Source: an uncultured Candidatus Saccharibacteria bacterium (GTDB taxonomy: Bacteria > Patescibacteriota > Minisyncoccia > Phycocordibacterales > Zambryskibacteraceae). Taken from it: a DNA stretch of 64,000 bases. The translations under genes and the position numbers were made by a program. This document shows, one piece after another, positions 17,247-49,196 of the stretch. The notes beneath the pieces are model-generated. The model saw nothing but the letters and a program-made list of their open reading frames with translations, had not been told where the DNA came from and searched no databases. The DNA lies in assembly GCA_964357635.1 (NCBI GenBank), contig CAYHLZ010000002.1:513-64512 (forward strand), written 5' to 3'. Every line of letters begins with the position of its first letter. The stretch's first letter is position 1.

Positions 17247-17564
17247 ATGATTTCTAAAAACAGGAGGATTCCCAGATTACTTTTTAAACCCCTTCTTGAA
17301 TCAAAACGATATTTCAATTCACAAAATTTTTCTCTACGAGTAGCACAGGGAAAAGTGGCTAAAGTTGCCGTGTCTGTTTCTAAAAAAGTTTCTAAGCGAG
17401 CAGTTGTCCGCAACAGAATTCGTCGACGAACATATTCAGCCATTCGCAAGCTTTTACCCAATCTTTCTAACAATCTTTTTTTACTGATTGCTAAACCGAG
17501 GGCTGAAAATGTTCGGGGCGAGAAGCTTAAGAACGAACTCGCCGAACTCTTTAAAAAAGTATAG
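17247..17564 (+). CDS. rnpA: RNase P protein component
   Basis: Basic protein with an 'RNRIRR' (RNR-motif) region, in the conserved position between rpmH and yidC. Confidence 0.8.
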   Translation: MISKNRRIPRLLFKPLLESKRYFNSQNFSLRVAQGKVAKVAVSVSKKVSKRAVVRNRIRRRTYSAIRKLLPNLSNNLFLLIAKPRAENVRGEKLKNELAELFKKV

Positions 17565-17573
17565 AATTAACCG

Positions 17574-18290
17574 ATGTCTTCTTTCTACCACACGGTTTTC
17601 TTTGACCCACTATACAACGGGTTAGTTGTTTTGTTTAAGATTTTACCTTGGGCTGATGCTGGTATTATTGTTATTCTTCTAACTGTTCTGGTTCGTATTA
17701 TTATTTTTCCTCTTTCCAAAAAGGCTATACTTACTCAAGTTAAAATGGCTGAGATTAGCCCGGAACTAGCAAAAATTAAGGAGAAATATAAAGACAAAAC
17801 AGAAGAGCAGGCAAGACAAACCCTCGCTCTTTACAAGGAAAAAGGGGTTAACCCATTTTCTGGAATATTTGTCATTATTATTCAGATTCCTATTATCTTT
17901 GCGTTGTATCAAATCTTTCTTCATCTTCCTGAGGTTAATCCGACTTTTCTATACTCGTTTGTTACTGCGCCAGATTATATCAACACCACCTTTCTTGGGG
18001 TTCTAGACATCACAGCAAAAAGTTTTGCTATTGCAGCTCTGGCAGCAGTTTCAACATTTTTTCAGTTTAAAATTTCTATGAAAGGACAAACCCCGCCAAC
18101 AGGTAACTCCTTCGGCAACAACTTGGCCCGAAGTATGCAGACTCAGATGAAATACTTTTTCCCAGTAATAGTTTTCTTTGTTTCTTATAATATCTCTGGG
18201 GTAATTGCTCTCTACTGGCTTACTACAAATCTTTTTAGTATCGGACAAGAACTTTTTGTTCGTAAGAAAATTAGAGCTCCTCAAGCCTGA
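17574..18290 (+). CDS. yidC: Membrane protein insertase YidC (short Oxa1-like form)
   Basis: Five TM segments in 238 aa with a conserved 'IQIPIIFALYQ' helix; rpmH-rnpA-yidC synteny. Confidence 0.8.
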   Translation: MSSFYHTVFFDPLYNGLVVLFKILPWADAGIIVILLTVLVRIIIFPLSKKAILTQVKMAEISPELAKIKEKYKDKTEEQARQTLALYKEKGVNPFSGIFVIIIQIPIIFALYQIFLHLPEVNPTFLYSFVTAPDYINTTFLGVLDITAKSFAIAALAAVSTFFQFKISMKGQTPPTGNSFGNNLARSMQTQMKYFFPVIVFFVSYNISGVIALYWLTTNLFSIGQELFVRKKIRAPQA

Positions 18291-19515
18291 GTGCCCAGAG
18301 AGTTAGGTCAATTTTGTTTATAAAGATTAAGTAATCTTCGTTTGGAGAAAGTTTTGGCTCTATTACATCGATGCTTCCTAGCTCTGTAGGTAGTTCTAGG
18401 AGAACCTGAGCAACACCAGTGTCAGTGTCAAAAGACCAAACTCTGTCATAAAAAACGCTTACTCCTTTGTACCAGTTATCTGGTTCGTTTATACCAATTT
18501 TGTTTGATGGCACACCACAGAAGACTAACGCTGTGTTTTTTGTACTCCACACACACTTATCGGCAAGGGTGGTAGCCGAAAGTTCATTAATATCATCAGC
18601 AGGAATGTTTTTTACAAACGACAAAGTTTCATTGTTGACGGCGTATGAATACAGCACCCGACTTCCTTGTGTATTAGACAGGGCTGTTAAAGCATTAAAT
18701 GGTCCAAGAATTTTTGTAAATGCCCCACTTGAGGTGTTTAACGAGTATGCATAACCAGGGACACTAAAGCTTGCTTTGGTGTGGACAACCAAGCTGTTGC
18801 CCGAAGTCATAAGACGCCAATTGGTGAAAGGTGAACTGAAAAGAGTTTTGAGACCAGAGCCATTAAACGCAGAAGAAACTATTGAGAGTGAATCTTCCAG
18901 AGAATAGATGAGGTTATCACCAGAGCCAACAGTCACAGAACCAATGTCTCCACGTATTGGAGTTGAGACAACCGTATAAAGCATGTCGGTTTCTGGCGAA
19001 CTTGTTGCTGTTGGTTTTGGTAGAGACAAAGCAAAAGACAAATTTTCTACCAAATCAGTGTCATCTTTAAGAAATCTTACAAGAACAGCCTTACCGTCCG
19101 TCCTAAAGTATGCCTCATAAATCTTCGGCAAGGTTTGGTTGGTAATCTTTGTTTTTTTAAGTGTCAGCAAATCAATCTCATAAATATGACCTGTTGCACG
19201 GTCCACATATCTTGCAACAGTGGTTGATGAATTTTTATTCAGAACCACTGCTCCAGCAACCGGAACATCAGAGAGCTGAAAAAATGTTTTCTCTGAAGAA
19301 TCCTCTTCATTTGAAACAGGTTCTTCGGTGGTTTCTGATGGATTTTCTGTTTCGGTTGTTGAAGAAGGAAGGTCGTCTCCAGAACCAAAGGGCAGAAGCC
19401 CAGAAACTGTTTCACTAAAAGGGGTACCAGAGCTTTTAAGAAACAGATATCCCCCAACTAGCACAGCAAGAAGCAGGATAGAGGTGATTATTATAATTAA
19501 AAACTTTTTTGACAT
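18271..19515 (-). CDS. Hypothetical membrane-anchored beta-rich protein (N-terminal TM, acidic S/T/E-rich linker, propeller-like repeats); last gene of the T4SS-like operon
   Basis: MSKKFLIIIITSILLLAVLVGGYLFL anchor; start overlaps the upstream pilin-like gene region; no recognised catalytic motif. Confidence 0.5.
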   Translation of the reverse strand: MSKKFLIIIITSILLLAVLVGGYLFLKSSGTPFSETVSGLLPFGSGDDLPSSTTETENPSETTEEPVSNEEDSSEKTFFQLSDVPVAGAVVLNKNSSTTVARYVDRATGHIYEIDLLTLKKTKITNQTLPKIYEAYFRTDGKAVLVRFLKDDTDLVENLSFALSLPKPTATSSPETDMLYTVVSTPIRGDIGSVTVGSGDNLIYSLEDSLSIVSSAFNGSGLKTLFSSPFTNWRLMTSGNSLVVHTKASFSVPGYAYSLNTSSGAFTKILGPFNALTALSNTQGSRVLYSYAVNNETLSFVKNIPADDINELSATTLADKCVWSTKNTALVFCGVPSNKIGINEPDNWYKGVSVFYDRVWSFDTDTGVAQVLLELPTELGSIDVIEPKLSPNEDYLIFINKIDLTLWALRLEEL

Positions 19516-19533
19516 AATATTAATTACTCAATT

Positions 19534-20397
19534 CTACGTTTGTGCATGCCAGTGGTTACCACGAGATGTTACCTCGTAAGTAAGTATTCCGATTCCTGGC
19601 ACCAACACCCTTGTTCCGTTTCTAGGACCAGATGCTTCTGAATTAAATTGTGATAAATAAGTATGAAGTGCTTGAGATTGGCGAAGGTCAATTGCTGCTC
19701 GACCGGGACCGTGTGTTTCGTGCCCACCTTCAGAGCCGCCAGTTATTGTTAAAGGGCAACCACAGAGGGTTGCCAACTGCATCACATGAAGAATGGTGGT
19801 TGGTGGTAGACCAACAACGTTTGTGCATCCTTCGGTTTCTCCGTTAACACAAGGACCATTATTTACCGACACGGGAGGTATGTTTTGCCCAAGCACCTGT
19901 CTAATTTGAGCATCTGCTGCCACTTGTTCTGGTGTCAGTGGGTATCCTGGGAGTACGTTACCACCACCTCCTCCAACAACAGGGGCGGGTGCGGTTGGTC
20001 GCGGGGCGCTAAAATTAAAATTCACCAAATCAGGATTAATGCTATTTAGAATAACCCAAGCACCTAATGCTAAAAGTAATCCGCCTATGGCATTTTGAAT
20101 AGTGTTTTTTGCCTCACTTTTTCCGGAAAAGGCGTCAGTGGACATATATTTAATACCACCGACAATTATCATAATAACAGCAAGCACTCCGGCGATGCCG
20201 ATAAGTAGAGAAAAGACGCCGGTGATGTATGGCACAGGACTCGTTCTTCCGCTTCCTTGGGTTGTTTCTGTCCCGGGCAAGGGTGCCAAAAGCTGATAAT
20301 CGGTTTGAGCAAATACTGGCGCGTTGTTAGCAAGTAAAACCAGAACGGCAAATACAAAAGCAATAAAAGCAAATTTTTTCATATTAGTTGTTTTCAT
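19534..20397 (-). CDS. VirB2/TrbC-like pilin-type protein fused to a Cys/His-rich C-terminal domain
   Basis: Signal peptide, then two hydrophobic helices separated by a short charged loop (pilin topology), then about 150 aa containing 'CGCP', 'GGHETHGPGRAAIDL' and 'NHWH'. Confidence 0.5.
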   Translation of the reverse strand: MKTTNMKKFAFIAFVFAVLVLLANNAPVFAQTDYQLLAPLPGTETTQGSGRTSPVPYITGVFSLLIGIAGVLAVIMIIVGGIKYMSTDAFSGKSEAKNTIQNAIGGLLLALGAWVILNSINPDLVNFNFSAPRPTAPAPVVGGGGGNVLPGYPLTPEQVAADAQIRQVLGQNIPPVSVNNGPCVNGETEGCTNVVGLPPTTILHVMQLATLCGCPLTITGGSEGGHETHGPGRAAIDLRQSQALHTYLSQFNSEASGPRNGTRVLVPGIGILTYEVTSRGNHWHAQT

Positions 20398-21094
20398 ATT
20401 GTATTAAGAAATTTTTATTGGCAAACTGCGTAACCTGGTACGTGTTTGATACACGCGCACGTATACTTGAAGCTCCTTTGGCATCATCGGGGGTGCGATA
20501 CGTTACCGAACTCCCCGTGTCTGTGCCCCCAACATTAGTGCCCCATTCGTACTTCAAAACATCGTCAGTGCGATCAAAAACACTAAAGAAAAAAGGAAAA
20601 GCCGTAAAAGTAACTTCTTTCCCCTCTAATTTATAGGTATTACCTACCTCTTTGTTGAATTTAAATCCATAAAGAGGATTGTTTTCATATATATAAAGAG
20701 AGGGCGTTAACGGGGTAATCTTAGTGGAGGCGCTTGCCAACACCGTTTTTTGACCATACTCGTCTGAAGAAGAAGAGATGATTTCTACCTTGATGGTTTG
20801 GGGTTTTGAAAGAATTGAGTCAAGAAAAGATATAGTATTTTTGCCAATCCCGTTTAAATTACCCAAAACTGTGCCAGTTTTTGTCCACTTATAGTTTAAG
20901 CTAGCTGGGTTACCGAGGCCGTGAGGTATTGCTACAAGAGTAATCCTAGACTGGCTTGACCACAGTGTCCTGCCTTTATAAAACGGAGGAACATAATTTT
21001 CTCCTTGCCAAAGAAGATCTACTTCTTGAGCCTTTAGAAAAGTTGTTGGCAGGATAAGTAGAGCAAGTACCAAAAGGAGAAAGGTTTTCTTCAT
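20384..21094 (-). CDS. Secreted hypothetical protein (signal peptide MKKTFLLLVLALLILPTTFLKA), beta-rich
   Basis: ORF within the T4SS-like operon; probable start at the internal Met at 21094, which precedes the signal peptide. Confidence 0.5.
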   Translation of the reverse strand: MKKTFLLLVLALLILPTTFLKAQEVDLLWQGENYVPPFYKGRTLWSSQSRITLVAIPHGLGNPASLNYKWTKTGTVLGNLNGIGKNTISFLDSILSKPQTIKVEIISSSSDEYGQKTVLASASTKITPLTPSLYIYENNPLYGFKFNKEVGNTYKLEGKEVTFTAFPFFFSVFDRTDDVLKYEWGTNVGGTDTGSSVTYRTPDDAKGASSIRARVSNTYQVTQFANKNFLIQYENN

Positions 21095-21135
21095 CCCCTT
21101 ATTATAACGAATCCTTTGGCAATTTTCTTTTGACA

Positions 21136-23007
21136 TTATTGACTTGTTGCTCCGGCCTCTTTTAACTCTCTTTGAGCTGCCTCCACGGCTGTTTCTTGGT
21201 TTTCTTCCGCTTCTTGTTTTGCCTTTTTAATAGCAAGCACTTGCGAGGGGTCGGAAGTGATAATCTGGTCTTCTGTATATGAAGCGATGTTTTTTATGGC
21301 AACGTGTTTTAGTCCAGCAAAAAAGATTCCTTCTCCCCTATCTGACTCCAGAAGCAAATATTTTTCCTCGTCTGTGAGATTAAAGGTTTTTTGAAGCTCG
21401 TCTATGATGGTGGGAGACTGCTTCATGAGAATCTGTATAGAAGAGTTGGTAATAATTGGCAAACCATAAGGACTCTTCAAGAAGTCGCCGACATCTTGCG
21501 TTATTGTCGCAACACCGAGGAAATATTTTCTTCCTCGCTTGACGAGTCCCATGAGGAAGGAAGCAGTGTCTTCCGATTTCATCATCCACCACGCCTCGTC
21601 TATAACCAAGAGACGTTTTTTGAGTTCTTTTCTGATAACGTTCCAAATATAGTGGGTAACAATGTACATGGCGATGGGCTTGAGTTCATCCTCCATGTCT
21701 CGCAGAGAGAAGACCACAAACTTTTTATTTATATCAACATTTGATGGTCTGTTGATAAATCCGGACCAAGTGCCTTTCGTATATTTGGAAAGTCTTTGAG
21801 CAAGAGATTCTCCACCCTCCATACCAGCAAGCACCATTTCAAAGTCAGACATTAAAGGAGGTTCAATATTACGAAAGTCTGAATCGGCAGTAATATCCTT
21901 GAGAGCGTATGTTTCAGTGATGGCGCGGTCAATAATAGCGTCTTCCTCAGCAGTTAAGCCACCCATCATTAGTCGGAAAAGACCGACTAGGTTAATAATA
22001 TTTGAGCGAAGCACGTTTGCCGTGCTCTCGTCTGGTCCAGGTATCGGTAGGTCAAAAGGATTTATATGGTGTTCTGAGTTAAGAGAGATTTTAAAATATC
22101 TACCACCTGTTGCTTCTGCCATGTACTCATACTCTCGCTCCGGATCTATCACGATCACTTCCGTGTCAAACATCAAGGTACGCAATATCTCAAGTTTTGT
22201 GGCATAAGATTTACCAGCACCAGACTTGGCAAACATAATTGAGTTGTAGTTTTCAAGAGAGAAGCGGTCAAAGAGCACCAAAGATGAGTTGTGCCTATTG
22301 ATACCATAAAGAATTCCCTTGTCTGAAGTTAGGTCAAAGGAGGTGAATGGGAAAAGAGAGGAAAGTGGAGAGGAGTTGAGCTTAGAATGCACCTCAAGAA
22401 GGTCGTTGCCAAGAGGAATGGTGCTTTTGTATCCCTGTTCTTGTTGGAAAAGAGCCGGTTTTACATAAATAAGTTTTGCTTCAAGAATAGATTTAATTTC
22501 TGACTCAACCTTATCTAACTCTGCGGCACTATCACCATAAATAGTGATATAAAGACCGACGTCAAAAAGTTTTTCCTGTGCTTGTTGAAGCTGGTCTCGC
22601 AGATTCTCAAGGTCTTGATAGGCAACGTCAAGCACTGGGTCACGCACCAACCCCTTTTCTTCTCTGCCGTGGATCTGACTTTGCACCTCGGCAACTTTTC
22701 TCTGGAACTGGCGCAACACCTTTGAAGTCTCAATAGGGTGAACAAAGATTGAGACATCAAAAACCTTGTCCATGTTAATAATGGGAGAAAACCAACCCTC
22801 GGAAAGAAAACGCGGATACGAAATAACAAAGAAACTTCTTAAAACCTTCTCACCAAGATTAATCTCCTTAGGTGTGACCTTGAGGGCCGATGGCGCAATA
22901 ATATCTTTGAGCTCCAGCACCCCTGCTTCAAAAATTTCTTTAGGCAAAATAGAAGAAATATCAGTCTTTGTTTCTTTTTTCTTAAATAATGAATCAAAAA
23001 TTGCCAT
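21136..23007 (-). CDS. VirB4/TrbE/CagE-family conjugation-type ATPase, C-terminal ATPase portion (split gene)
   Basis: Walker A 'FAKSGAGKSYATK', Walker B 'LLVIDEAWWM'; N-terminal 'IAPSALKV...SYPRFLSEGWF' matches the segment that follows the VirB4 N-domain. Confidence 0.8.
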   Translation of the reverse strand: MAIFDSLFKKKETKTDISSILPKEIFEAGVLELKDIIAPSALKVTPKEINLGEKVLRSFFVISYPRFLSEGWFSPIINMDKVFDVSIFVHPIETSKVLRQFQRKVAEVQSQIHGREEKGLVRDPVLDVAYQDLENLRDQLQQAQEKLFDVGLYITIYGDSAAELDKVESEIKSILEAKLIYVKPALFQQEQGYKSTIPLGNDLLEVHSKLNSSPLSSLFPFTSFDLTSDKGILYGINRHNSSLVLFDRFSLENYNSIMFAKSGAGKSYATKLEILRTLMFDTEVIVIDPEREYEYMAEATGGRYFKISLNSEHHINPFDLPIPGPDESTANVLRSNIINLVGLFRLMMGGLTAEEDAIIDRAITETYALKDITADSDFRNIEPPLMSDFEMVLAGMEGGESLAQRLSKYTKGTWSGFINRPSNVDINKKFVVFSLRDMEDELKPIAMYIVTHYIWNVIRKELKKRLLVIDEAWWMMKSEDTASFLMGLVKRGRKYFLGVATITQDVGDFLKSPYGLPIITNSSIQILMKQSPTIIDELQKTFNLTDEEKYLLLESDRGEGIFFAGLKHVAIKNIASYTEDQIITSDPSQVLAIKKAKQEAEENQETAVEAAQRELKEAGATSQ

Positions 23008-23008
23008 A

Positions 23009-23665
23009 TTAGGTTACTTTAATCGGCTTCTCTGTCTCGCCCGGGTTAAATGCTTTGTAGAAAAGCTCAATAACTTCTTCTGTACCAAGACGAACCACAC
23101 GAATGCCGGTTCGTATTAGTCCTTGCTCTACCACTGACAAACGTTCTTCAAGCTGGCTTCTGTCCTCGTCAAAACTTGCTTCAGTCTTACTGGATTTATC
23201 ATTATCGGTACCAAGTCCTAGACGTGAAGTAATGCCACTGGCAATACCTCCGCTTGACTGGCTGGTTGATAAAATGGCGGGACTATAAGGCACCACGATA
23301 AAGAAGTGTTTGGTCATAATGTTTGTGTTCTCGGTGAAGTTTTTGATGAATTCAATGTATTCTCTCACCTGAATCTTCATTAAATTGTTCGTCTGGTTTT
23401 TCTCTTGTCCCTCTAGAAGAGCGATGTAGGGGCGGATATCAAGTTTGCGAGATTGCACCACTATCTCAATAGAGAAATCAAGAGAATTTAGAAAATCTTG
23501 GAATTGGAAGAGAATTGCCTGCTTCTCATCTTCCGATTTTAGAGAAAAGTTTAAGGACGAGCAGAGAAGGATAGAGCGCATGCCTCCGTCTTTGAGGATG
23601 ACAGTACCGTCCCGCACCTCTTTGATGGGAACAAATTCTTGGGTAGCGTTTGTAGTAGGAGCCAT
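23009..23665 (-). CDS. VirB4-family N-terminal domain (CagE/TrbE/VirB-type) encoded as a separate ORF
   Basis: 'VPIKEVRDGTVILKDGGMRSILLCSSLNFSLKSEDEKQAILFQFQDFLNSLDFSIEIVVQSRKLD' and '...EEVIELFYKAFNP' match the VirB4 N-domain; stop TAA and next ATG form TAAtATG, a 1-nt gap in a different frame. Confidence 0.65.
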   Translation of the reverse strand: MAPTTNATQEFVPIKEVRDGTVILKDGGMRSILLCSSLNFSLKSEDEKQAILFQFQDFLNSLDFSIEIVVQSRKLDIRPYIALLEGQEKNQTNNLMKIQVREYIEFIKNFTENTNIMTKHFFIVVPYSPAILSTSQSSGGIASGITSRLGLGTDNDKSSKTEASFDEDRSQLEERLSVVEQGLIRTGIRVVRLGTEEVIELFYKAFNPGETEKPIKVT

Positions 23666-23672
23666 GCCTCAA

Positions 23673-24104
23673 TTATACCTTATCCTCGGTGTTTTCCGTT
23701 GTAGGATTAACGTTTTCTTTAATATCTAGGCTCCAACTAAGATCTCTAAGCTTTGATTCCGATAGTTTGGGTACATAGACTTGGTCTAAAGGTTTTGCAT
23801 CTCTTGGTCCGGCAACTGGCTTCTTCTCTTCCTTCTTCCAGAGATAGAGCTTGTTGGTCAAGGTGTATTTAACAAAAGCTTCTACTACGTTTATAAACGG
23901 TTTGCCGTTGATTTTGTAAAACGCCAATGCTCCAGCGAAGGCAAGTATGGGTAATGCAATTAAAATCGCTAAAAATTTTGGTAAAAGAATGAACAAAACG
24001 ACAGCAATACCAGCTCCACCAGCAACATAAATAAATTGCTTAAAGGTCATAGGGCCAAAAATCTTGTCTTCAATCTCTATAAATTGTGGTACTTGAAAGC
24101 GCAT
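23673..24104 (-). CDS. PrgI/VirB3-like small membrane protein
   Basis: 'MRFQVPQFIEIEDKIFGPMTFKQFIYVAGG' followed by two TM helices; sits just upstream of VirB4 as in Gram-positive T4SS. Confidence 0.55.
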   Translation of the reverse strand: MRFQVPQFIEIEDKIFGPMTFKQFIYVAGGAGIAVVLFILLPKFLAILIALPILAFAGALAFYKINGKPFINVVEAFVKYTLTNKLYLWKKEEKKPVAGPRDAKPLDQVYVPKLSESKLRDLSWSLDIKENVNPTTENTEDKV

Positions 24105-24113
24105 AAATTTATT

Positions 24114-24647
24114 TTACACTAACGGCTCTCTATACGGATCCTTTCCTTCTCCATATCTATAATCTGGCAAAGACGTCTTCGTTTCTTTTGGTTTCGGCGG
24201 TTCTCCGCCCGACTCCAGCCCGACAAAGTCATTCTGGCGGGGAACGACTTCAGTCGTTCGGGCGGGCTCTACATGTGGCACGCTGTGCGCCACCTCACCC
24301 TCTTCTACCATGGGCAGGTTATCACCAGAAACTTTTTTCTCCCCAATACTTTTTTCCACAATTGGACCAAGAATTTTCTCAGCGACAGAGTCTCCAATTT
24401 TGTTGGCTGTTTCTTGGGACACACTAACTGCCCGTATAATGTTTTGTACAAAATCATCCGGGTTCTCAAACGCATATAGAACAAACATAGTTTCCTGTTC
24501 AAGAGAAACTATTTGTTCGGGGTCTAAAGCATTACTTTTACCAATTTCCTCTACCAACGCTTTCCAAGGCAGGGCACTAATTGCCTGTTGCAGATTGGAG
24601 GGCAACTTATCAAACTGTTCTTTTATAAGTTTTTCTTCTTCGTTCAT
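24114..24647 (-). CDS. Hypothetical acidic cytoplasmic protein in the T4SS-like operon
   Basis: 177-aa ORF overlapping the upstream gene by 4 nt; no known motif. Confidence 0.45.
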   Translation of the reverse strand: MNEEEKLIKEQFDKLPSNLQQAISALPWKALVEEIGKSNALDPEQIVSLEQETMFVLYAFENPDDFVQNIIRAVSVSQETANKIGDSVAEKILGPIVEKSIGEKKVSGDNLPMVEEGEVAHSVPHVEPARTTEVVPRQNDFVGLESGGEPPKPKETKTSLPDYRYGEGKDPYREPLV

Positions 24648-26830
24648 GGTGTAGATGTTGTTCCTCCGGAAGGTGGTGGGGGTGTTGATGGTGGAGTTGC
24701 TTCTGGCGTTTCTTCTTCAGGCAAATCTCCTGATTCTTTGGCAACATCTTTATATGCCTCGATTAATTTGTCTTTTTTACTCTTTCCTGTTCTTATTCGA
24801 GCTGCCGCAGCATAGTTATAACCAGCAAGTTTTGCCCAAGGGGATCTTTCCACCATATCTGCATATTTACCTTTTCGTATTTCTGCCGCTGGTTGTATTT
24901 CCTTCAGGCTTTCTATTTGTTTGTCATAAGCAGCGGATATTATCTTTGTGTCTTCCTCTATTTTTTCTCTTGCCCTAATCGTCTCTTTCTTTAATGTCTT
25001 AAGTTTTTCTCTTTCAATGTCCAATTCTTTTAACTTTTCTGTTTTGACTCCAAAGTCAGCTGTTTCTAGTTCTCCTTCTAGTTTAGATATGGCATCAGAT
25101 GATGCTTTTTCTTTTGCTTCAGTCGCCCTCAATTGCTCTTTATTTTTTTCTTCCTTTTTCTTTATATCCGCCTGTTTGTTTGTTTCCGCTTCCTGTCTTT
25201 TTTTCTTTATCTCCTCTTTGTTACCCAACAGATTATCAAGTTTTTGTTTAGCCTGAAGCGCCTGTGGCGAAGTTTCTCCAAATTTTGTTTTTGCGTTATC
25301 ATATTCAGCTTTTGCCTTAGCCCTTGCTTTATCTGATGGGGCATATGATTCCGCCACCTTTGCTGCTTTTTCAGATTGTGCTTTTCTGTATCCAGAAAAA
25401 CCATCTTTAGTACCCTTGAACACTTTAGAATCAGCATCAAGAACACCTCCCAATCCGCCAGGAGCATTTCTTGCATCATAGCTTGCTGACCCACCCTTTC
25501 TTCCTGCCCAAAGAGCAAGTCTTGCACTTCGACTACCCTCAGCAGCTTTTCCTTTAAAGTACTCGCTTTCAGATACTGCGGTTGCTGCTCTACCAACCGT
25601 TTGTCTACCAGCAAACGCCGCTGTTCCGACAACAGCACCAGTCAAGAATTTGGTTGCGTTCGTTACATTTGAACCAGCCTTGTTTGCCCACGATTTGGCG
25701 ATACTAAGAGCAGCAAGGAGAAAGACAATCACAATCATAAAGTTCATAAACATAGCAAACGCTCCACTGGAAAGGGCAACTATCTCCTGCCCCCGCTCAC
25801 CTACAGCCGCAAGAGCGCCAAACTCGGTAACGGCACCTCCCGCCGAACCCAAAGAGGTCCTAATACCCCTTAGAACCTCAACCGCAATCCAAAGAATCAT
25901 AAAAAATATAGGGGCAAAAAACGCTTGCCCCACCAGAGTTTCTTTCCACTTATCTGCTGCTCCGCGTAGTGCCGGTAAAACAAAGGCAATAAAAGCTATA
26001 GGAGAAAGAATTAATACCAAAATTAAAACCACATAACGCACAATAAGCATGATTGCCATAGAGAAGAAGACAAAGGCGGAAATGACAAGCATGATAGAGC
26101 CCATCATAGTTATAGTGAGTATGGTTCCATTGCCGAGAGTGCCTCCGCTAAAGCTGTAAAGACTTTGCAAATTTAATTGTTGCATAAAAGCGTTTGAAAG
26201 ACCGCGTGATGACAGGGCGGTTGTGAGGTCAGTTAGAGTTCCGGAAGGTATGATTAGATCGTGGAAAAAGAGAGCCAATATATTGGCGGCATCAATGACC
26301 AGTTTGGTGAAGAAGAGACTGAAGTTTATAAGTATGGCAACGATGATGACGTTAACAATTAGTTTCTTGGTATCGCTTCCTACTCCCAAGATGGTTCGTA
26401 TCGCTGCATACAGGAGGATAAATATAAAACCCATGTTGGCGAGGTCACGGACGGCATCCCATGCATTATTTATGGCGGTTTCGTTAGCAGCATAGTTGTC
26501 AGACATGCTGATGACTGTGAAATAGACCACTGCATTTAAAACAACTCCGGCCAGGCCTGTCAAAAATCCCATAAACTGAAGGATTGACTCTGCCAAGGGA
26601 ATGACAACCCATGACATTATTTCGCACCCAAAATCAAACACCTCTGGACACAGTCCCTCCGATGATGCCCCTGACGGTTGGTCAGGTATACAACCGGGCT
26701 GAGGATCGACAGAGCACGGTGGTGGGGCTTGAGCCAATGTTGTTTGAGGAGCAATAAATCCACTTGTAGTAAAAACAATTACAAGAACGAAAAATAAAGC
26801 CGAAAATTTTTTCCAATACTTTTTCATCAA
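24644..26830 (-). CDS. VirB6/TrbL-like polytopic membrane protein with a long C-terminal K/E-rich coiled-coil and Pro-rich tail
   Basis: Signal peptide, Cys-rich extracellular segment (CSVDPQPGCIPD...CPEVFDFGCE), at least six TM helices, then about 250 aa of lysine/glutamate-rich repeats ending TPPSTPPPPSGGTTSTP. Confidence 0.55.
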   Translation of the reverse strand: MMKKYWKKFSALFFVLVIVFTTSGFIAPQTTLAQAPPPCSVDPQPGCIPDQPSGASSEGLCPEVFDFGCEIMSWVVIPLAESILQFMGFLTGLAGVVLNAVVYFTVISMSDNYAANETAINNAWDAVRDLANMGFIFILLYAAIRTILGVGSDTKKLIVNVIIVAILINFSLFFTKLVIDAANILALFFHDLIIPSGTLTDLTTALSSRGLSNAFMQQLNLQSLYSFSGGTLGNGTILTITMMGSIMLVISAFVFFSMAIMLIVRYVVLILVLILSPIAFIAFVLPALRGAADKWKETLVGQAFFAPIFFMILWIAVEVLRGIRTSLGSAGGAVTEFGALAAVGERGQEIVALSSGAFAMFMNFMIVIVFLLAALSIAKSWANKAGSNVTNATKFLTGAVVGTAAFAGRQTVGRAATAVSESEYFKGKAAEGSRSARLALWAGRKGGSASYDARNAPGGLGGVLDADSKVFKGTKDGFSGYRKAQSEKAAKVAESYAPSDKARAKAKAEYDNAKTKFGETSPQALQAKQKLDNLLGNKEEIKKKRQEAETNKQADIKKKEEKNKEQLRATEAKEKASSDAISKLEGELETADFGVKTEKLKELDIEREKLKTLKKETIRAREKIEEDTKIISAAYDKQIESLKEIQPAAEIRKGKYADMVERSPWAKLAGYNYAAAARIRTGKSKKDKLIEAYKDVAKESGDLPEEETPEATPPSTPPPPSGGTTSTP

Positions 26831-46087: not shown

Positions 46088-46162
46088 TGGTGCCCCCAGC
46101 AGGAATCGAACCCACATCACCTGTTCCGAAGACAGGCACTTTATCCATTAAGCTATGGGGGC
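46088..46162 (-). tRNA. tRNA-Arg (anticodon TCG), CCA encoded
   Basis: Reverse complement GCCCCCATAGCTTAATGGATAAAGTGCCTGTCTTCGGAACAGGTGATGTGGGTTCGATTCCTGCTGGGGGCACCA folds as a cloverleaf; anticodon loop CTTCGGA. Confidence 0.8.
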
Positions 46163-46192
46163 GTTGAATTTATCGTACAAGAGATTTATCTG

Positions 46193-46263
46193 TGCGACTA
46201 GGGAGAATCGAACTCCCATCTCGTCCTTGGCAAGGACGCATTCTACCACTAAACCATAGTCGC
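46193..46263 (-). tRNA. tRNA-Gly (anticodon GCC)
   Basis: Reverse complement GCGACTATGGTTTAGTGGTAGAATGCGTCCTTGCCAAGGACGAGATGGGAGTTCGATTCTCCCTAGTCGCA; anticodon loop TTGCCAA. Confidence 0.8.
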
Positions 46264-46343
46264 AAGTGAAGAGATAATAACTTATTTGGGGAAAAAAATC
46301 GAGATTTTGAAATCACATCTTCGCGTGATAGGATGGACGATTA

Positions 46344-46369
46344 CGGGCTGTATGAGTACATCAGCCCGA
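46344..46369 (+). other. tRNA-Pro acceptor-stem minihelix (internally deleted tRNA-Pro-like element), copy 1
   Basis: CGGGCTG-TATGAGTACAT-CAGCCCG-A: acceptor stem and discriminator identical to the neighbouring tRNA-Pro genes, with the body replaced by an 11-nt loop. Confidence 0.55.
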
Positions 46370-46416
46370 GCATTCAGAACGATAAGTTATGCTAGCATAA
46401 CTTCTGTTCTTCATTA

Positions 46417-46487
46417 CGGGCTGTAGTACAGCGGTAGTATACACGCTTCGGGAGTGTGAGACCCGAGTTCGATTCTCGGCAGCCCGA
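46417..46487 (+). tRNA. tRNA-Pro (anticodon CGG)
   Basis: C1-G72 acceptor CGGGCTG/CAGCCCG (bacterial tRNA-Pro hallmark); anticodon stem-loop CACGC-TTCGGGA-GTGTG; T-arm CCGAGTTCGATTCTCGG. Confidence 0.8.
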
Positions 46488-46528
46488 TGCCAAATAAAGT
46501 GTGTTAGCATAATTTCTGTTCCTAACTA

Positions 46529-46599
46529 CGGGCCGTAGTATATCGGTAGTATGCATGCTTTGGGAGCATGAGGGCCGAGTTCGATTCTCGGCGGCCCGA
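46529..46599 (+). tRNA. tRNA-Pro (anticodon TGG)
   Basis: CGGGCCG...CGGCCCG acceptor; anticodon loop TTTGGGA; same T-arm as the other Pro copies. Confidence 0.8.
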
Positions 46600-46616
46600 A
46601 AGAACGTTTCTCACTA

Positions 46617-46642
46617 CGGGCTGTATGATTACATCAGCCCGA
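46617..46642 (+). other. tRNA-Pro acceptor-stem minihelix, copy 2
   Basis: CGGGCTG-TATGATTACAT-CAGCCCG-A; preceded by the same leader (TTCTCACTA) as the tRNA-Pro(GGG) gene. Confidence 0.55.
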
Positions 46643-46689
46643 GCGCTCGAAGCCCGTGCCCATGTAAACATGGTCACGACTTCTCACTA

Positions 46690-46760
46690 CGGGCTGTAGT
46701 ATAGCGGTAGTATTTGCCCATGGGGTGGGTAAGGCCCGGGTTCAATTCCCGGCAGCCCGA
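46690..46760 (+). tRNA. tRNA-Pro (anticodon GGG)
   Basis: CGGGCTG/CAGCCCG acceptor; anticodon stem-loop TGCCC-ATGGGGT-GGGTA; T-arm CCCGGGTTCAATTCCCGG. Confidence 0.75.
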
Positions 46761-46769
46761 AAGTAAGTT

Positions 46770-46843
46770 GCGGGATTAGTTTAGTGGTAAAACGACAGTT
46801 TTCCAAACTGTAGTTGGGAGTTCGATTCCCCCATCCCGCACCA
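46770..46843 (+). tRNA. tRNA-Gly (anticodon TCC), CCA encoded
   Basis: GCGGGAT...ATCCCGCACCA; anticodon stem-loop ACAGT-TTTCCAA-ACTGT. Confidence 0.8.
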
Positions 46844-46862: not shown

Positions 46863-47447
46863 CTAAATATATTTAAGTATTCCAGCTTTTTTCATTTCCT
46901 CTAGGGCTAAGTTAAACAGTTTTACAATCTTTTTCTCACGATAGTGAACCATAAGTATAAAAATGGTATTAGCTGGTATCAGGTTGAGACCAGGTATAAG
47001 TTCAATACACATAGCTAATGCATATCTAATCCACAGATATCTTATGATTTTTTTCTTCCACCAACCACCACTTGATTTACTAAAACACCACATAAACAGG
47101 GCAAGTGCCAAGACTAGTCCCACAATATAAACAAAAATCCAAACAATAATTCCAATAATCGTAAGAGCAAGGGCGGTTCCCACCCAGTCCAAAGTATCCT
47201 TAGCCATGGCCACCACAAGTATCATAAACGGGAAGTCGGAGTGTTGAGGAGGATCTTCAACCAAACGCTTCGCATCACCATCCTCAAACGTCTCACCTTC
47301 TTTACGAAATATTTTTCTCGATTTTTCCATAACATCACCCACAGCCCTTTCAATTTCGCGCGCCCCTTTCTCTAAGGCAATGCGACTTATACGCTGTGCT
47401 TGTTCCAGCTCTTTTTGTTCTAATAATCGTTCGGCTTCTTCATTCAT
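46863..47447 (-). CDS. Hypothetical membrane protein (N-terminal coiled-coil, three or four TM helices), likely co-transcribed with the ion channel gene
   Basis: Start lies 4 nt after the channel gene stop; hydrophobic helices 'FMILVVAMA', 'ALALTIIGIIVWIFVYIVGLVLALALFMW' and 'LIPANTIFILMV'. Confidence 0.5.
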   Translation of the reverse strand: MNEEAERLLEQKELEQAQRISRIALEKGAREIERAVGDVMEKSRKIFRKEGETFEDGDAKRLVEDPPQHSDFPFMILVVAMAKDTLDWVGTALALTIIGIIVWIFVYIVGLVLALALFMWCFSKSSGGWWKKKIIRYLWIRYALAMCIELIPGLNLIPANTIFILMVHYREKKIVKLFNLALEEMKKAGILKYI

Positions 47448-47450
47448 AAA

Positions 47451-48212
47451 TTAAGGCTTATCCTCGGTCACTCTGTCAGTTTTCTTGCCGAGCAAAAGGT
47501 GAGAAACTGCTGTGCCAATAATGTGAATTAAGAATCCAAGGAGAATAAAGCTAACAAACCTAGCAACCATAAAAATGATTATACCTGCATATGTTTGAGG
47601 CATGGTGGTAGAGATAGAGCCACCCAAGAGTGCCTCCAGAATCCAGAGCATGCTTAAGGGAATGTTTTCAAAATTTGGATGTCCGTGTTCAAAGACATAT
47701 ACAAGCGTTCCAAGTGTCGTGATGGTGAAAATGAGTGCAGAAAAATAAATTTGGATATTTAAGCGGAGGATGGCAGACTTATCTTCTGCTGACTGTCTTT
47801 CTAAGTGTTCAAAGCGAACTACTTTAGCCAAGCGTATCATTCTCAAGAAACGAAGTATTCGCAGAGCCCTTATTGATTTGAAGAATGATAGGTTTGAAAT
47901 ACCTAATAAAGTCGGAAGTATTGATATTAAATCCACCAACCCAAAGAAACTGAAAATGTATGAAAGTTTTTTATGACTACCAATGATTCGGCAAATGTAT
48001 TCAATAGAGAAAATAAAAACAGCCGTATACTCAATGACCAAGAAATATTGATTATAGTGAGAAAATTTGGATACAGACTCAAAGATGATTGCCAGAATTG
48101 AAATAACTATAACAATAGATAGAAAATCATTAACTCTAAGAAAAAATTTTGAGTTTGTTTCATAAAATGCTTTTTGGCAAAAGAGAGTTATAGGGTTAGA
48201 GAGCGCTTTCAT
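47451..48212 (-). CDS. Voltage-gated ion channel superfamily protein (single 6-TM domain with S4 voltage sensor; selectivity unclear)
   Basis: S4-like helix 'IRALRILRFLRMIRLAKVVRF' with Arg at every third position; S1-S3, pore loop and S6 are readable; no GYG potassium filter. Confidence 0.65.
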   Translation of the reverse strand: MKALSNPITLFCQKAFYETNSKFFLRVNDFLSIVIVISILAIIFESVSKFSHYNQYFLVIEYTAVFIFSIEYICRIIGSHKKLSYIFSFFGLVDLISILPTLLGISNLSFFKSIRALRILRFLRMIRLAKVVRFEHLERQSAEDKSAILRLNIQIYFSALIFTITTLGTLVYVFEHGHPNFENIPLSMLWILEALLGGSISTTMPQTYAGIIIFMVARFVSFILLGFLIHIIGTAVSHLLLGKKTDRVTEDKP

Positions 48213-48244
48213 GTAAGTTTTATTATACCAAGAATTTTTAGGCT

Positions 48245-48649
48245 CTAAATAATAATATTTTCGATTATTTCCGCTCTCGCTTGCCTATTTTTCTGGTCAA
48301 TTTTTACCGTTATAAGATCAAGTTGCCAGTCTTGGTCCAGTTTTTTCTCCAACAAATATGTCTGGATAACTCTGGAGAGTCGTTTCAATTTCCACGGATG
48401 CATGTTGTCTTCTGGTCTAAATCCTCCATCTGTTCCATGGGAAACATTGCCAAAAGTTACACACGAAACGCTTTTTACCTCTATAAAGTGAATAATATTA
48501 GACTTTGTGGCGACAATATCTATCTCGCCCCACTTTCTAAGATAGTTTCTCTCTTTAACTTCAAATCCCCTTTTCTTTAGAAAATCACAGGCAACATTCT
48601 CTCCGATATCTCCCAATTTTCTCTTTTCCGTTCTATTATCAGCTTTCAT
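48245..48649 (-). CDS. YraN-family (UPF0102) predicted endonuclease
   Basis: 'GENVACDFLKKRGFEV...EIDIVA...IHFIEVKS' PD-(D/E)xK-like core typical of the YraN family. Confidence 0.7.
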   Translation of the reverse strand: MKADNRTEKRKLGDIGENVACDFLKKRGFEVKERNYLRKWGEIDIVATKSNIIHFIEVKSVSCVTFGNVSHGTDGGFRPEDNMHPWKLKRLSRVIQTYLLEKKLDQDWQLDLITVKIDQKNRQARAEIIENIII

Positions 48650-49196
48650 TACAATATATTAAATAAGTTTCATATGAAACGTATAAGAGTATGAAATGGC
48701 TATAATTAAGGACATTTAAGTATTATGCCCTTTAAATATATGTCTTTTAATACCCACTTTCCACATAATTATCCACAGATTACCTAATTTATGGTCTAAT
48801 CGTCTTTAAAATAAAGACTTTTTTACTTTTGGCCATATTTGTTTGATAATCAATAAAAGACTTTTTCTAAGACATTGAAACAAAAAACCGCCACGGGTTT
48901 CCGCAGCGGTTTCCCCGCCGAAGCGGAGTGAAAGATCATTCCAGAGAAGAGGTCGGGCTTACAGAATGCACGAGACCAAAAATAAAAAAAGTTGGGGGTT
49001 CGTCATCCTTATCCGAACCACTAAACCAGAATCATCTTCCGGTAGTTGGAACGGCCTCCCATGAACTATACTCGAACTCAAATCTCAATTAGAGAACCAA
49101 GAATATCTGTCCGAGCGTCTGCAAGTATTGTACTTTATAAAGGACAAATTTAGAAGTTGAAATCTGGGGATAAGAGTGTCCTTTTGTTTTATGGCT

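What the first reader, a model, noticed from the sequence alone, without database searches (positions are those of the whole stretch)
46863..48649. Voltage-sensor-containing ion channel apparently co-transcribed with a YraN-family nuclease and a coiled-coil membrane protein
A 253-aa six-TM channel protein with a textbook S4 helix (IRALRILRFLRMIRLAKVVRF, Arg every third residue) is unexpected in a reduced genome. Its pore loop lacks the potassium-channel GYG motif (sequence ...LWILEALLGGSISTTMPQ...), so selectivity is unclear; a NaChBac-like or non-selective pore is possible. It sits 33 nt downstream of yraN, a PD-(D/E)xK-like endonuclease, and 4 nt upstream of a 194-aa membrane protein with an N-terminal coiled coil, all on the minus strand. 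This could be a channel plus an auxiliary subunit. More speculatively, pairing a nuclease with a membrane-depolarising component resembles some abortive-infection systems.
Basis: partly seen in the sequence, partly recalled or inferred. Interest (0 to 1): 0.55.

Follow-up and report, generated by a model that had tools for sequence, protein, structure and literature searches.

The report
Voltage-sensor channel plus T4SS-cluster partner
A tiny-genome Patescibacteria bacterium encodes a potassium-channel-like voltage-sensing channel that has lost the potassium filter; it is recurrently paired with a small membrane protein that normally sits in the type IV secretion gene cluster, and the neighbouring YraN nuclease is unrelated.

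Summary
The three minus-strand ORFs exist as described: YraN 48649..48245, a 253-aa channel 48212..47451, and a 194-aa membrane protein 47447..46863.

**Channel.** It is a true Ion_trans protein with a complete, highly conserved voltage sensor. It belongs to a Patescibacteria clade derived from Kv-type K+ channels, not NaChBac. TTVGYGD is replaced in register by LGGSIST/LGG-I, so a K+-selective filter is not possible.

**YraN.** The link is not supported. No related locus has yraN nearby, there are no defence-family hits, and the best promoter-like site lies in the 32-nt gap.

**Auxiliary subunit.** This idea is supported and sharpened.
- A partner-type gene adjoins the channel in 5 of 12 channel-first loci, in at least four genomic contexts and once in reversed order.
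- Two close relatives carry different partner types, swapped exactly at the junction.
- The partner family normally sits directly after virB4 in the Patescibacteria T4SS-like cluster (17 of 24 loci).
- In two lineages the channel is inserted between virB4 and the partner.
- In this window the T4SS cluster (18.3-26.8 kb) lacks the partner, and the only copy sits beside the channel.

**Unproven.** Function is inferred only: probably a voltage-gated, non-K+-selective channel with an accessory protein, possibly tied to the T4SS-like machine.

The parts
47451..48212 (-). 253-aa six-TM voltage-sensor channel of a Patescibacteria-specific, Kv-derived clade (Ion_trans)
   Evidence: ORF. Pfam Ion_trans 3.6e-18. 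AF2 model pLDDT 83 with S1-S6 and a pore helix. Foldseek and PDB profile searches give Kv channels as best matches. About 93 clade clusters found.
47814..47888 (-). S4 voltage-sensor helix (residues 109-133), with basic residues K112, R115, R118, R121, R124, R127, K130 and R133
   Evidence: K112, R115, R121, R127 and K130 are invariant and R118 and R124 are at least 90% conserved across 87 clade members. S4 is the most conserved segment at 0.92 bits entropy. The countercharges E61, F68, E71, R75 (S2) and D94 (S3) are invariant and align with the Kv3.1 charge-transfer residues.
47583..47663 (-). Pore helix and degenerate selectivity-filter loop (residues 184-210: IPLSMLWILEALLGGSISTTMPQTYAG)
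   Evidence: LGGSIST aligns in register with TTVGYGD of canonical relatives. W190 is present in 87/87, P205 in 85/87, T207 in 80/87 and G210 in 87/87. The G-G pair is present in 75/87 each, and the rest of the filter is variable. Filter entropy is 2.05 bits.
46863..47447 (-). 194-aa small membrane protein ('partner', type A). It has a long N-terminal helix followed by four helices, two of them strongly hydrophobic, and carries the motifs FP..I..A..KD.LD, SGGWWKKKII.WLW and IE.IP...IPANTIF
   Evidence: ORF. Its start codon lies 3 nt after the channel stop. It has 23 homologs, with no Pfam, NCBIfam, PHROG or PADLOC hit. AF2 pLDDT is 86, with no significant PDB fold match. The family's usual position is directly after virB4.
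48222..48249 (-). Promoter-like site in the yraN-channel gap (TTTAGA-16 nt-TGgTATAAT). The -10 box ends 10 nt before the channel ATG and no Shine-Dalgarno sequence is visible
   Evidence: Best match of the region, 10/12 with an extended -10; sequence. Comparable -10 boxes lie 7-13 nt before the channel ATG in L081, L082 and L086. This is a consensus match only.
48245..48649 (-). YraN/UPF0102 family protein (134 aa); a neighbour, not part of the module
   Evidence: Pfam UPF0102 3.3e-17. NCBIfam YraN scores 95.7 bits, below the equivalog cut-off of 111. It was never found near a channel or partner homolog in other loci.
18271..26830 (-). The window's own T4SS-like cluster: VirB6-like 728 aa, a 177-aa gene, PrgI/VirB3, TrsD-like 218 aa, VirB4-like 623 aa (23007..21136), a 250-aa gene, a VirB2-pilin-like 287 aa and a 414-aa gene. 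It lies next to yidC/rnpA. The slot after virB4, where the partner family normally sits, is empty
   Evidence: tblastn against the L089 cluster proteins, ORFs, Pfam and NCBIfam TrsD. The VirB4 stop overlaps the next gene's start at 21136. The window holds only one partner-type gene.
46088..46843 (.). tRNA cluster that bounds the module downstream. On the + strand, Pro-CGG, Pro-TGG, Pro-GGG and Gly-TCC converge on the partner stop with a 19-nt gap; Arg and Gly lie on the - strand
   Evidence: ARAGORN, Rfam, gap size.

Best explanation
The unit is a two-gene module (channel, then 194-aa membrane protein) with its own promoter. YraN is an unrelated housekeeping neighbour.

The channel is a tetrameric six-TM voltage-sensing channel descended from Kv-type K+ channels. 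Its voltage sensor is fully intact and is the most strongly conserved part. The K+ filter TTVGYGD has been replaced by LGGSIST, with both filter glycines and the key threonine lost. It therefore cannot form the four-site K+ filter and most likely conducts cations without K+ selectivity, as NaK and NirBac channels do.

The downstream protein is a small membrane protein that acts with the channel as an accessory or adaptor subunit. Its family is otherwise a fixed component of the Patescibacteria T4SS-like gene cluster, directly after virB4. The pair therefore probably ties membrane voltage or ion flux to that host-interaction machine.

Shown: gene anatomy, family membership, filter replacement, conservation pattern, and the recurrent channel-partner and partner-virB4 adjacencies. 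Inferred: conduction, selectivity, physical interaction, and any coupling to the T4SS.
For: **Channel identity**
- Ion_trans 66 bits.
- AF2 gives a 6TM fold.
- Kv channels are the best fold and profile matches.

**Voltage sensor**
- The S4 basic residues, S2 E61/F68/E71/R75 and S3 D94 are invariant or at least 90% conserved.
- They align with the Kv3.1 charge-transfer residues.
- S3 and S4 have the lowest entropy, 0.95 and 0.92 bits.

**Filter**
- There is an in-register replacement of TTVGYGD, with the scaffold residues W190, P205, T207 and G210 kept.
- As a precedent, NirBac channels keep K+-channel architecture with replaced P-loops and are experimentally non-selective (PMC4607889).

**Module**
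- The gap is 3 nt in the window, and 2-5 nt in L082, L084, L095, L113 and L116.
- A partner-type gene is adjacent in 5/12 channel-first loci, and in 5/8 of those at least 47% identical to the window's channel.
- 5/24 partner-first loci carry a channel directly upstream.
- The contexts differ: inside the T4SS cluster (L082, L106), next to yraN and tRNAs (window), near a Na/H exchanger (L084), and after murE (L116).
- The order is reversed in L086.
- L095 and L116 share 84% DNA identity up to the junction, then carry different partner types.

**T4SS link**
- The partner sits directly after virB4, or among T4SS genes, in 17/24 partner-first loci plus L089-L091.
- The window's T4SS cluster lacks it.

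**Own promoter:**
Against: - No functional data exist for any member.
- 7 of 12 channel-first loci have no partner nearby, including the close relatives L081 (70% identity), L118 (58%) and L083 (55%). The channel can therefore exist without an adjacent partner.
- Most partner genes have no channel.
- The filter region is variable (LGG, LGS, LGD, LED), which could mean the pore is not the selected function.
- The partner has no recognisable fold or family.
- Homology between partner types A and B is only suggestive (hhalign E 2.2e-4, probability 45%).
- The trees are unbootstrapped NJ trees.
- The promoter is a consensus match in a scan that is not significantly enriched overall (17 sites found against 11.3 +/- 3.6 expected).
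- The partner's role in the T4SS rests on gene position alone.
Confidence: 0.5

Rival explanations
1. Historical hitch-hiking. A channel gene once inserted into the T4SS operon between virB4 and the partner gene, and later rearrangements carried the two genes along together. They do not interact, and the channel is a stand-alone ion channel.
For: The in-cluster arrangement virB4-channel-partner exists in L082 and L106. Many channels lack a partner (L081, L083, L087, L088, L118, L001, L002). Most partners lack a channel.
Against: Adjacency survives in at least four unrelated contexts and with reversed gene order in L086. Close relatives swap partner type yet still keep a partner-type gene at the same junction. 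Channel-linked partners are scattered through the partner tree. In this window the partner left the T4SS cluster together with the channel rather than staying behind.
Confidence: 0.25
2. Pore-dead voltage sensor. The protein no longer conducts ions, and its conserved voltage-sensing domain reports membrane potential to the partner and the T4SS machinery.
For: S3 and S4 and all gating charges are far more conserved than the filter (entropy 0.92-0.95 against 2.05 bits). The filter sequence drifts among LGG, LGS, LGD and LED.
Against: The pore helix, W190, P205, T207, G210, S5 E175, the S6 glycine G226 and the G-G pair (75/87) remain conserved. That would be unexpected for a vestigial pore. The S4-S5 linker, which would transmit sensor movement, is the least conserved segment (2.98 bits).
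Confidence: 0.12
3. An ordinary voltage-gated K+ channel, as some automatic annotations name clade members.
For: JGI labels several members 'voltage-gated potassium channel'. The closest solved structures are Kv channels.
Against: None of the clade members examined has TxGYG. Both filter glycines and the threonine are replaced. The clade lacks the Ion_trans_2 Pfam hit that the canonical relatives have.
Confidence: 0.04
4. One reading: a YraN nuclease plus a membrane-depolarising channel acting as an abortive-infection or defence system.
For: There is only physical proximity in this one genome (a 32-nt gap on the same strand), with no terminator-like site between the genes.
Against: No YraN hit in 37 related loci or in the gene tables of L116-L119. 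No PADLOC hits for any of the three proteins. A promoter-like site separates the genes. YraN/UPF0102 is a widespread housekeeping-type family (established knowledge).
Confidence: 0.02

Closest known systems
Prokaryotic and eukaryotic Kv-type voltage-gated K+ channels (KvAP; Kv1/Shaker, Kv2, Kv3, Kv4)
   Same: Six-TM architecture. S4 has basic residues at every third position. The S2 E-x6-F-x2-E-x3-R and S3 D charge-transfer set is present. The pore-helix Trp and the P-x-T-x-x-G after the filter are retained, and the W-to-P distance is the same as in canonical relatives. Kv channels are the best sequence, profile and fold matches.
   Different: TTVGYGD is replaced by LGGSIST or a one-residue-shorter LGG-I[PS]. 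There is no Ion_trans_2 hit, no T1 domain and no C-terminal domain. R218-F219 in S6 is a clade-specific conserved pair. The filter is less conserved than the sensor.
Non-selective relatives of K+ channels with altered P-loops (NirBac, PMC4607889; NaK, CNG and HCN as discussed there)
   Same: The K+-channel scaffold is kept while the filter is changed. This is the functional analogy used to predict loss of K+ selectivity.
   Different: NirBac and NaK are 2-TM channels without a voltage sensor, and their filter sequences are unrelated to LGGSIS. Selectivity of the present clade has not been measured.
Bacterial voltage-gated Na+ channels (NaChBac, NavAb, NavRh)
   Same: They are single-domain six-TM voltage-gated channels of similar size in bacteria.
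   Different: The match is much weaker: NavRh 4dxw scores E 3.4e-4 against 1.9e-8 for Kv, and none appears among the 60 best profile hits. No (T/S)LESW-type filter or conserved acidic filter residue is present.
Patescibacteria T4SS-like cluster (MPF_FATA-related; PMC12102498)
   Same: The window has the described cluster (VirB6-like, PrgI/VirB3, TrsD, VirB4, VirB2-like pilin) beside yidC/rnpA near the origin. The partner family occupies the +1 position after virB4, which that paper's Table S3 example leaves unassigned.
   Different: Neither the partner family nor any ion channel is mentioned in that paper or its held supplements. In this window the partner gene lies 24 kb from the cluster, attached to the channel.
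Accessory subunits of eukaryotic Kv channels (KCNE, DPP6, KChIP)
   Same: Conceptually similar: a small protein encoded or assembled with a Kv-type channel (from general knowledge).
   Different: There is no sequence or fold similarity, and no interaction has been shown here.

Membership tests
Voltage-gated ion channel superfamily (Pfam Ion_trans PF00520) | Match to the Ion_trans model above the gathering score | tested here: met
   66.1 bits against a cut-off of 25, residues 30-237
Voltage-gated ion channel superfamily (Pfam Ion_trans PF00520) | S4 with basic residues every third position, plus S2/S3 countercharges and the charge-transfer Phe | tested here: met
   K112, R115, R118, R121, R124, R127, K130; E61, F68, E71, R75; D94. 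All are invariant or at least 90% conserved in 87 sequences and align with the Kv3.1 residues
Voltage-gated ion channel superfamily (Pfam Ion_trans PF00520) | S5, pore helix, loop and S6 pore module; tetrameric assembly | tested here: inconclusive
   The monomer AF2 model shows S5, a pore helix (184-195) and S6. Oligomeric state could not be modelled with these tools
K+-selective channels (Kv) | T-x-G-[YF]-G signature filter | tested here: not met
   LGGSIST occupies the position of TTVGYGD. G-G-x occurs in 75/87 clade members and no TxGYG was seen
K+-selective channels (Kv) | Closest overall sequence and fold relatives are Kv channels | tested here: met
   Profile against PDB: Kv2.1 1.3e-26, Kv4, Kv1.2, Shaker, KvAP 4.7e-17. 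Foldseek top hits are Kv4, Kv1 and Kv3
Bacterial Nav (NaChBac-like) | Filter with a conserved acidic residue, (T/S)-L-E-S-W-type | tested here: not met
   No conserved acidic residue in the filter columns. E193 alternates with K (37 E against 35 K). NavRh scores only E 3.4e-4
Non-selective tetrameric cation channels (works like NaK or NirBac) | Measured lack of K+/Na+ discrimination | not testable with these tools
   Inferred from loss of the filter Thr and both Gly and from the NirBac precedent
YraN / UPF0102 | Match to Pfam UPF0102 above the gathering score | tested here: met
   63.1 bits against 23.6. The best NCBIfam YraN equivalog scores 95.7 bits, below its cut-off of 111
Anti-phage defence or abortive-infection system (nuclease plus membrane effector) | Components match known defence families | tested here: not met
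   PADLOC gives 0 hits for all three proteins
Anti-phage defence or abortive-infection system (nuclease plus membrane effector) | Conserved co-occurrence of the nuclease and effector genes | tested here: not met
   No YraN hits in 37 loci holding channel or partner homologs, and none in the gene tables of L116-L119
Patescibacteria T4SS-like cluster component (the 194-aa partner family) | Conserved position within the virB4 gene cluster | tested here: met
   Directly after virB4 in 14 of 24 partner-first loci, with 3 more flanked by cluster genes, plus L089-L091 with 4-12 nt gaps
Patescibacteria T4SS-like cluster component (the 194-aa partner family) | Homology to a named T4SS component (VirB, Prg or Trs) | tested here: not met
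   No Pfam, NCBIfam or PHROG hit and no PDB fold match. CONJScan/MPF profiles were not available
Patescibacteria T4SS-like cluster component (the 194-aa partner family) | Physical or functional participation in the secretion machine | not testable with these tools
   Inference from gene position only

The most novel reading that the evidence does not exclude
The channel is a voltage-dependent control element of the Patescibacteria T4SS-like host-interaction machine. Through the small partner protein, which is otherwise a fixed virB4-adjacent cluster component, changes in the epibiont's membrane potential or ion flux would gate or trigger secretion or uptake. This would be a direct electrical input to a type IV secretion system, which has not been described before.
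Probability: 0.15. Interest if true: 0.85.

Novelty: new variant of a known kind. Interest (0 to 1): 0.55.

Why it matters
Patescibacteria have minimal genomes, so genes they keep tend to be important.

Their T4SS-like system is essential for epibiotic growth in the one species tested, and its role is described as completely unknown (PMC11665869; PMC12102498). A voltage-sensing channel that repeatedly travels with, or inserts next to, a conserved but unassigned gene of that cluster gives a concrete and testable lead on how the machine might be regulated. It also flags the +1 gene after virB4 as a component worth studying.

For ion-channel biology, the clade is a natural experiment. A Kv-type voltage sensor is kept under strong constraint while the K+ filter has been replaced and is allowed to drift. 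In addition, this may be the first prokaryotic Kv-type channel with a dedicated accessory membrane protein.

If the pairing turns out to be only historical, the finding reduces to an unusual but unremarkable channel subfamily.

Tried and rejected
- **Genome-contig scan.** The scan with the channel alignment chose an S3 motif shared with ordinary K+ channels. 78 of the 80 loci returned were canonical channels and only L001 and L002 were useful. I switched to exact-protein look-ups instead.
- **Exhaustive HMM search.** The count at E<=1e-30 (279) is not a clean clade size. Tandem two-domain and eukaryote-type four-domain channels add up their domain scores.
- **Family searches for both partner types.** Pfam, NCBIfam, PHROGs and PADLOC all gave nothing.
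- **NaChBac-like pore:** rejected.
- **Defence or Abi reading:** rejected.
- **Phage origin:** only a generic Ion_trans PHROG of unknown function hit the channel.
- **Rfam on the 550-nt region upstream of yraN:** nothing credible.
- **Literature.** No paper combines Patescibacteria with voltage-gated ion channels, and the two papers from the 'Candidate Phyla Radiation' plus 'potassium channel' search were irrelevant. The Patescibacteria T4SS paper and its held supplements do not mention a channel.
- **Homology between partner types A and B.** It remains only suggestive: hhalign E 2.2e-4, tblastn 2.7e-5 and 0.01.
Full report
**1. Observation**

ORF listing confirms three consecutive minus-strand genes:
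- 48649..48245, 134 aa
- 48212..47451, 253 aa
- 47447..46863, 194 aa

The gaps are 32 nt and 3 nt.

Pfam places the first gene in UPF0102/YraN (63.1 bits) and the second in Ion_trans (66.1 bits, cut-off 25). The third has no Pfam or NCBIfam hit.

Downstream, the module is bounded by a tRNA cluster and the CCA-adding enzyme gene. Upstream of yraN lies a gene-free stretch of about 550 nt and then an ExoIII-like gene.

The exact channel protein is on record as 'MAG: ion transporter [Patescibacteria group bacterium]'.

**2. The channel**

*Clade.* A database search returned about 93 clusters (P0001-P0093) of 39-100% identity and mostly 230-265 aa that carry only Ion_trans. There is then a sharp drop to proteins of at most about 37% identity that also carry Ion_trans_2, which are canonical K+ channels. 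Named members come from Parcubacteria-group/Minisyncoccota lineages.

*Filter.* In a joint alignment, the canonical TTVGYGD is replaced in register by LGGSIST in the window's protein. In more distant members it is replaced by a one-residue-shorter LGG-I[PS]. The pore-helix Trp (W190), P205, T207 and G210 are retained. Across 87 members the two glycines are each present in 75, and the following positions are variable. A wider sample shows LGG, LGS, LGD and LED variants.

*Voltage sensor.* The sensor is complete. S4 has K112, R115, R118, R121, R124, R127 and K130. S2 has E61, F68, E71 and R75, and S3 has D94. All are invariant or at least 90% conserved, and they align residue for residue with the Kv3.1 S2 and S4.

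*Conservation pattern.* S3 and S4 are the most conserved segments (0.95 and 0.92 bits entropy). The filter scores 2.05 bits. This is the reverse of canonical K+ channels, where the filter is the most conserved element (established knowledge).

*Structure and nearest relatives.*
- AlphaFold2 with the clade alignment gives pLDDT 83 and the expected S1-S6 plus pore helix.
- Foldseek finds Kv4, Kv1, Kv3 and KCNQ.
- The clade profile's 60 best PDB matches are all Kv-type channels: Kv2.1 1.3e-26 and KvAP 4.7e-17.
- The only BacNav-like entry reached E 3.4e-4 with the single sequence.

The channel is therefore Kv-derived, not NaChBac-like. The Thr and both Gly that build the four-site K+ filter are gone. 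By analogy with NaK and the experimentally non-selective NirBac channels (PMC4607889), I infer a non-K+-selective cation pore. This has not been measured.

**3. YraN is a bystander**

- tblastn with the window's YraN found only itself among 37 loci that carry channel or partner homologs.
- The gene tables of L116-L119 show no UPF0102 gene.
- The closest relatives with usable upstream sequence have other DNA upstream: L095 (72% identity), L116 (72%) and L113 (63%).
- The strongest sigma-70-like match in 46.0-50.2 kb lies inside the 32-nt gap: TTTAGA-16-TGgTATAAT, with the -10 box ending 10 nt before the ATG and no Shine-Dalgarno sequence.
- Similar -10 boxes sit 7-13 nt before the channel ATG in L081, L082 and L086. 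This is consensus-level evidence only.
- PADLOC gives no hit for any of the three proteins.

The abortive-infection idea is not supported.

**4. The downstream protein and its real home**

The 194-aa protein has 23 homologs, all unannotated; those that carry a source name are from Patescibacteria/Parcubacteria MAGs. They share a strongly conserved core with the motifs FP..I..A..KD.LD, SGGWWKKKII.WLW.RY and IE.IP...IPANTIFILMAHYREKKIVKLFNLALEEL. The N-terminus varies in both length and sequence.

AF2 (pLDDT 86) predicts a long N-terminal helix followed by four helices. Only residues 84-126 are strongly hydrophobic. No PDB fold match is significant.

Context look-ups of three homologs all gave the same arrangement: a large protein, a 190-270-aa protein, PrgI, TraC-like/TrsD, the VirB4-like ATPase, THIS FAMILY (4-12 nt after virB4), then proteins of about 330, 400 and 400 aa, followed by yidC, in two of the three rnpA, and dnaA.

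A metagenome scan with the partner alignment gave 24 loci:

| Context of the partner gene | Loci |
|---|---|
| virB4 directly upstream, no channel | 14 |
| Other T4SS cluster genes downstream (upstream not covered) | 3 |
| virB4 downstream on the opposite strand | 1 |
| A channel-clade gene directly upstream | 5 |
| No informative neighbour | 1 |

This cluster is the Patescibacteria T4SS described in PMC12102498: MPF_FATA-related, near dnaA and without a relaxase. In that paper's Table S3 example, the gene after VirB4 is not assigned to any component. Neither that paper nor its held supplements mention an ion channel.

**5. The channel-partner module**

Partner-type genes lie next to the channel in these loci:

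| Locus | Arrangement and context |
|---|---|
| Window | 3-nt gap; yraN and tRNA context |
| L084/L085 | 2-nt gap; Colwellbacteria; Na/H-exchanger context |
| L086 | partner upstream of the channel, 58-nt gap |
| L095, L096, L113 | channel directly upstream of the partner |
| L082 | inside the T4SS cluster, order virB4-channel-partner |
| L106 (and L107) | L106: inside the T4SS cluster, order virB4-channel-partner; L107: channel-partner only (channel cut at the locus start) |
| L116/L117 | after murE |

The downstream genes in L082 and L116 form a second type, type B. It has 8 clusters (P0291-P0298), and its soluble helical part is C-terminal. Type B is only weakly related to type A: hhalign E 2.2e-4 over the membrane core, and tblastn 2.7e-5 and 0.01.

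L095 and L116 are 84% identical in DNA from the leader through the whole channel gene. Identity ends a few codons into the downstream gene. One locus then carries type A and the other type B. A partner-type gene is thus kept at a fixed junction even when it is exchanged.

In an unbiased, channel-first sample, 5 of 12 loci have an adjacent partner-type gene. That is 5 of 8 for channels at least 47% identical to the window's and 0 of 4 for the more distant subclade. Channel-linked partners are scattered among virB4-linked ones in a poorly resolved NJ tree.

**6. The situation in this window**

The window contains its own T4SS-like cluster on the minus strand at 18271-26830:
- VirB6-like (weak TrbL hit)
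- PrgI (5e-13)
- TrsD-like
- VirB4-like, 23007..21136 (73% identical to the L089 VirB4)
- a 250-aa gene
- a T4SS_pilin-containing gene
- a 414-aa gene

The cluster lies next to yidC and rnpA.

The VirB4 stop overlaps the start of the next gene, so the usual partner slot is empty. The only partner-type gene in the 64 kb is the one beside the channel. The cluster gene has in effect moved 24 kb away together with the channel.

**7. Interpretation**

*Best supported.* This is a two-gene module that encodes a Kv-derived voltage-gated channel with a non-K+ pore and a small membrane protein acting with it. The partner's normal membership of the T4SS gene cluster suggests that the pair links membrane voltage or ion flux to that machine. 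The T4SS is essential for epibiotic growth in S. epibionticum, and its role is called completely unknown (PMC11665869; PMC12857230).

*Shown:* anatomy, families, filter replacement, conservation pattern and adjacencies.

*Inferred:* conduction, selectivity, physical interaction and T4SS coupling.

*Main rivals:*
- A purely historical linkage after one insertion into the operon.
- A non-conducting voltage sensor.

*Caveats:*
- Adjacency is not universal.
- The trees are unbootstrapped.
- The promoter is a consensus match only.
- The AF2 models are monomers.

**8. Novelty and score**

Pipelines annotate the channel clade only as 'ion transporter' or 'voltage-gated potassium channel'. I found no description of its filter, of the partner family, or of the channel-T4SS-cluster link.

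I rate it a new variant of a known kind, with interest 0.55. It is a solid, unexpected genomic association and a clear hypothesis, but there are no functional data.

Noticed in passing
window 48650-49196 (minus-strand sense): A gene-free stretch of about 550 nt lies between the ExoIII-like gene and yraN. It has two terminator-like hairpins with T-runs, at about 49020-48985 and 48934-48888, so it may hold an unannotated small RNA. The fold z-score is -2.6. Rfam gives nothing credible (ncS54, E 0.1), and no similar DNA occurs in the fetched loci.
   Followed up: partly
window 50063-51187 and 51200-53245 (+): Two adjacent Ser/Thr/Gly-rich, secreted-looking proteins (the first carries an InlB B-repeat-like domain) both end with the same C-terminal tag, VQINFDP[DS]FEEF-stop. 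These are the only two occurrences in the window. It may be a shared sorting, anchoring or processing signal.
   Followed up: partly
window 18271-26830 (-) and 17247-18290 (+): A complete Patescibacteria T4SS-like cluster lies next to yidC and rnpA, in the replication-origin neighbourhood. The gene that usually follows virB4 is missing from its slot and sits at 47447..46863 instead.
   Followed up: yes
L095 1-1045 versus L116 4744-5776: Two close relatives share 84% DNA identity through the leader and the channel gene. Homology stops a few codons into the downstream gene, after which one carries a type A partner and the other a type B partner. This looks like a cassette-like replacement at a fixed junction.
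   Followed up: yes
L113 1398-1933: The partner gene downstream of a channel 63% identical to the window's is split into two overlapping frames (121 aa and 71 aa). This is either a frameshift or pseudogene, or an assembly error.
   Followed up: no
window 46417-46843 (+): Three tRNA-Pro genes that between them cover the CGG, TGG and GGG anticodons lie in a row, followed by tRNA-Gly(TCC). They converge on the partner gene's stop codon with a 19-nt gap.
   Followed up: no
proteins P0144-P0147: These high-GC proteins of about 570 aa are tandem two-domain (2 x 6TM) channels. Some have canonical TTGYGD filters in both halves. Others have THGSPY or THGSAF in one half and T[TS]GSG in the other. They are unrelated to the finding but are unusual two-pore-like bacterial channels.
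   Followed up: no
channel residues R218-F219 (window 47556-47561): An Arg-Phe pair in the middle of S6 is at least 90% conserved in the clade, where canonical relatives have hydrophobic residues. Its role is unexplained.
   Followed up: no
protein P0064: A clade member is labelled Candidatus Heimdallarchaeota on a 1457-bp contig. This is most likely mis-binned Patescibacteria DNA.
   Followed up: no
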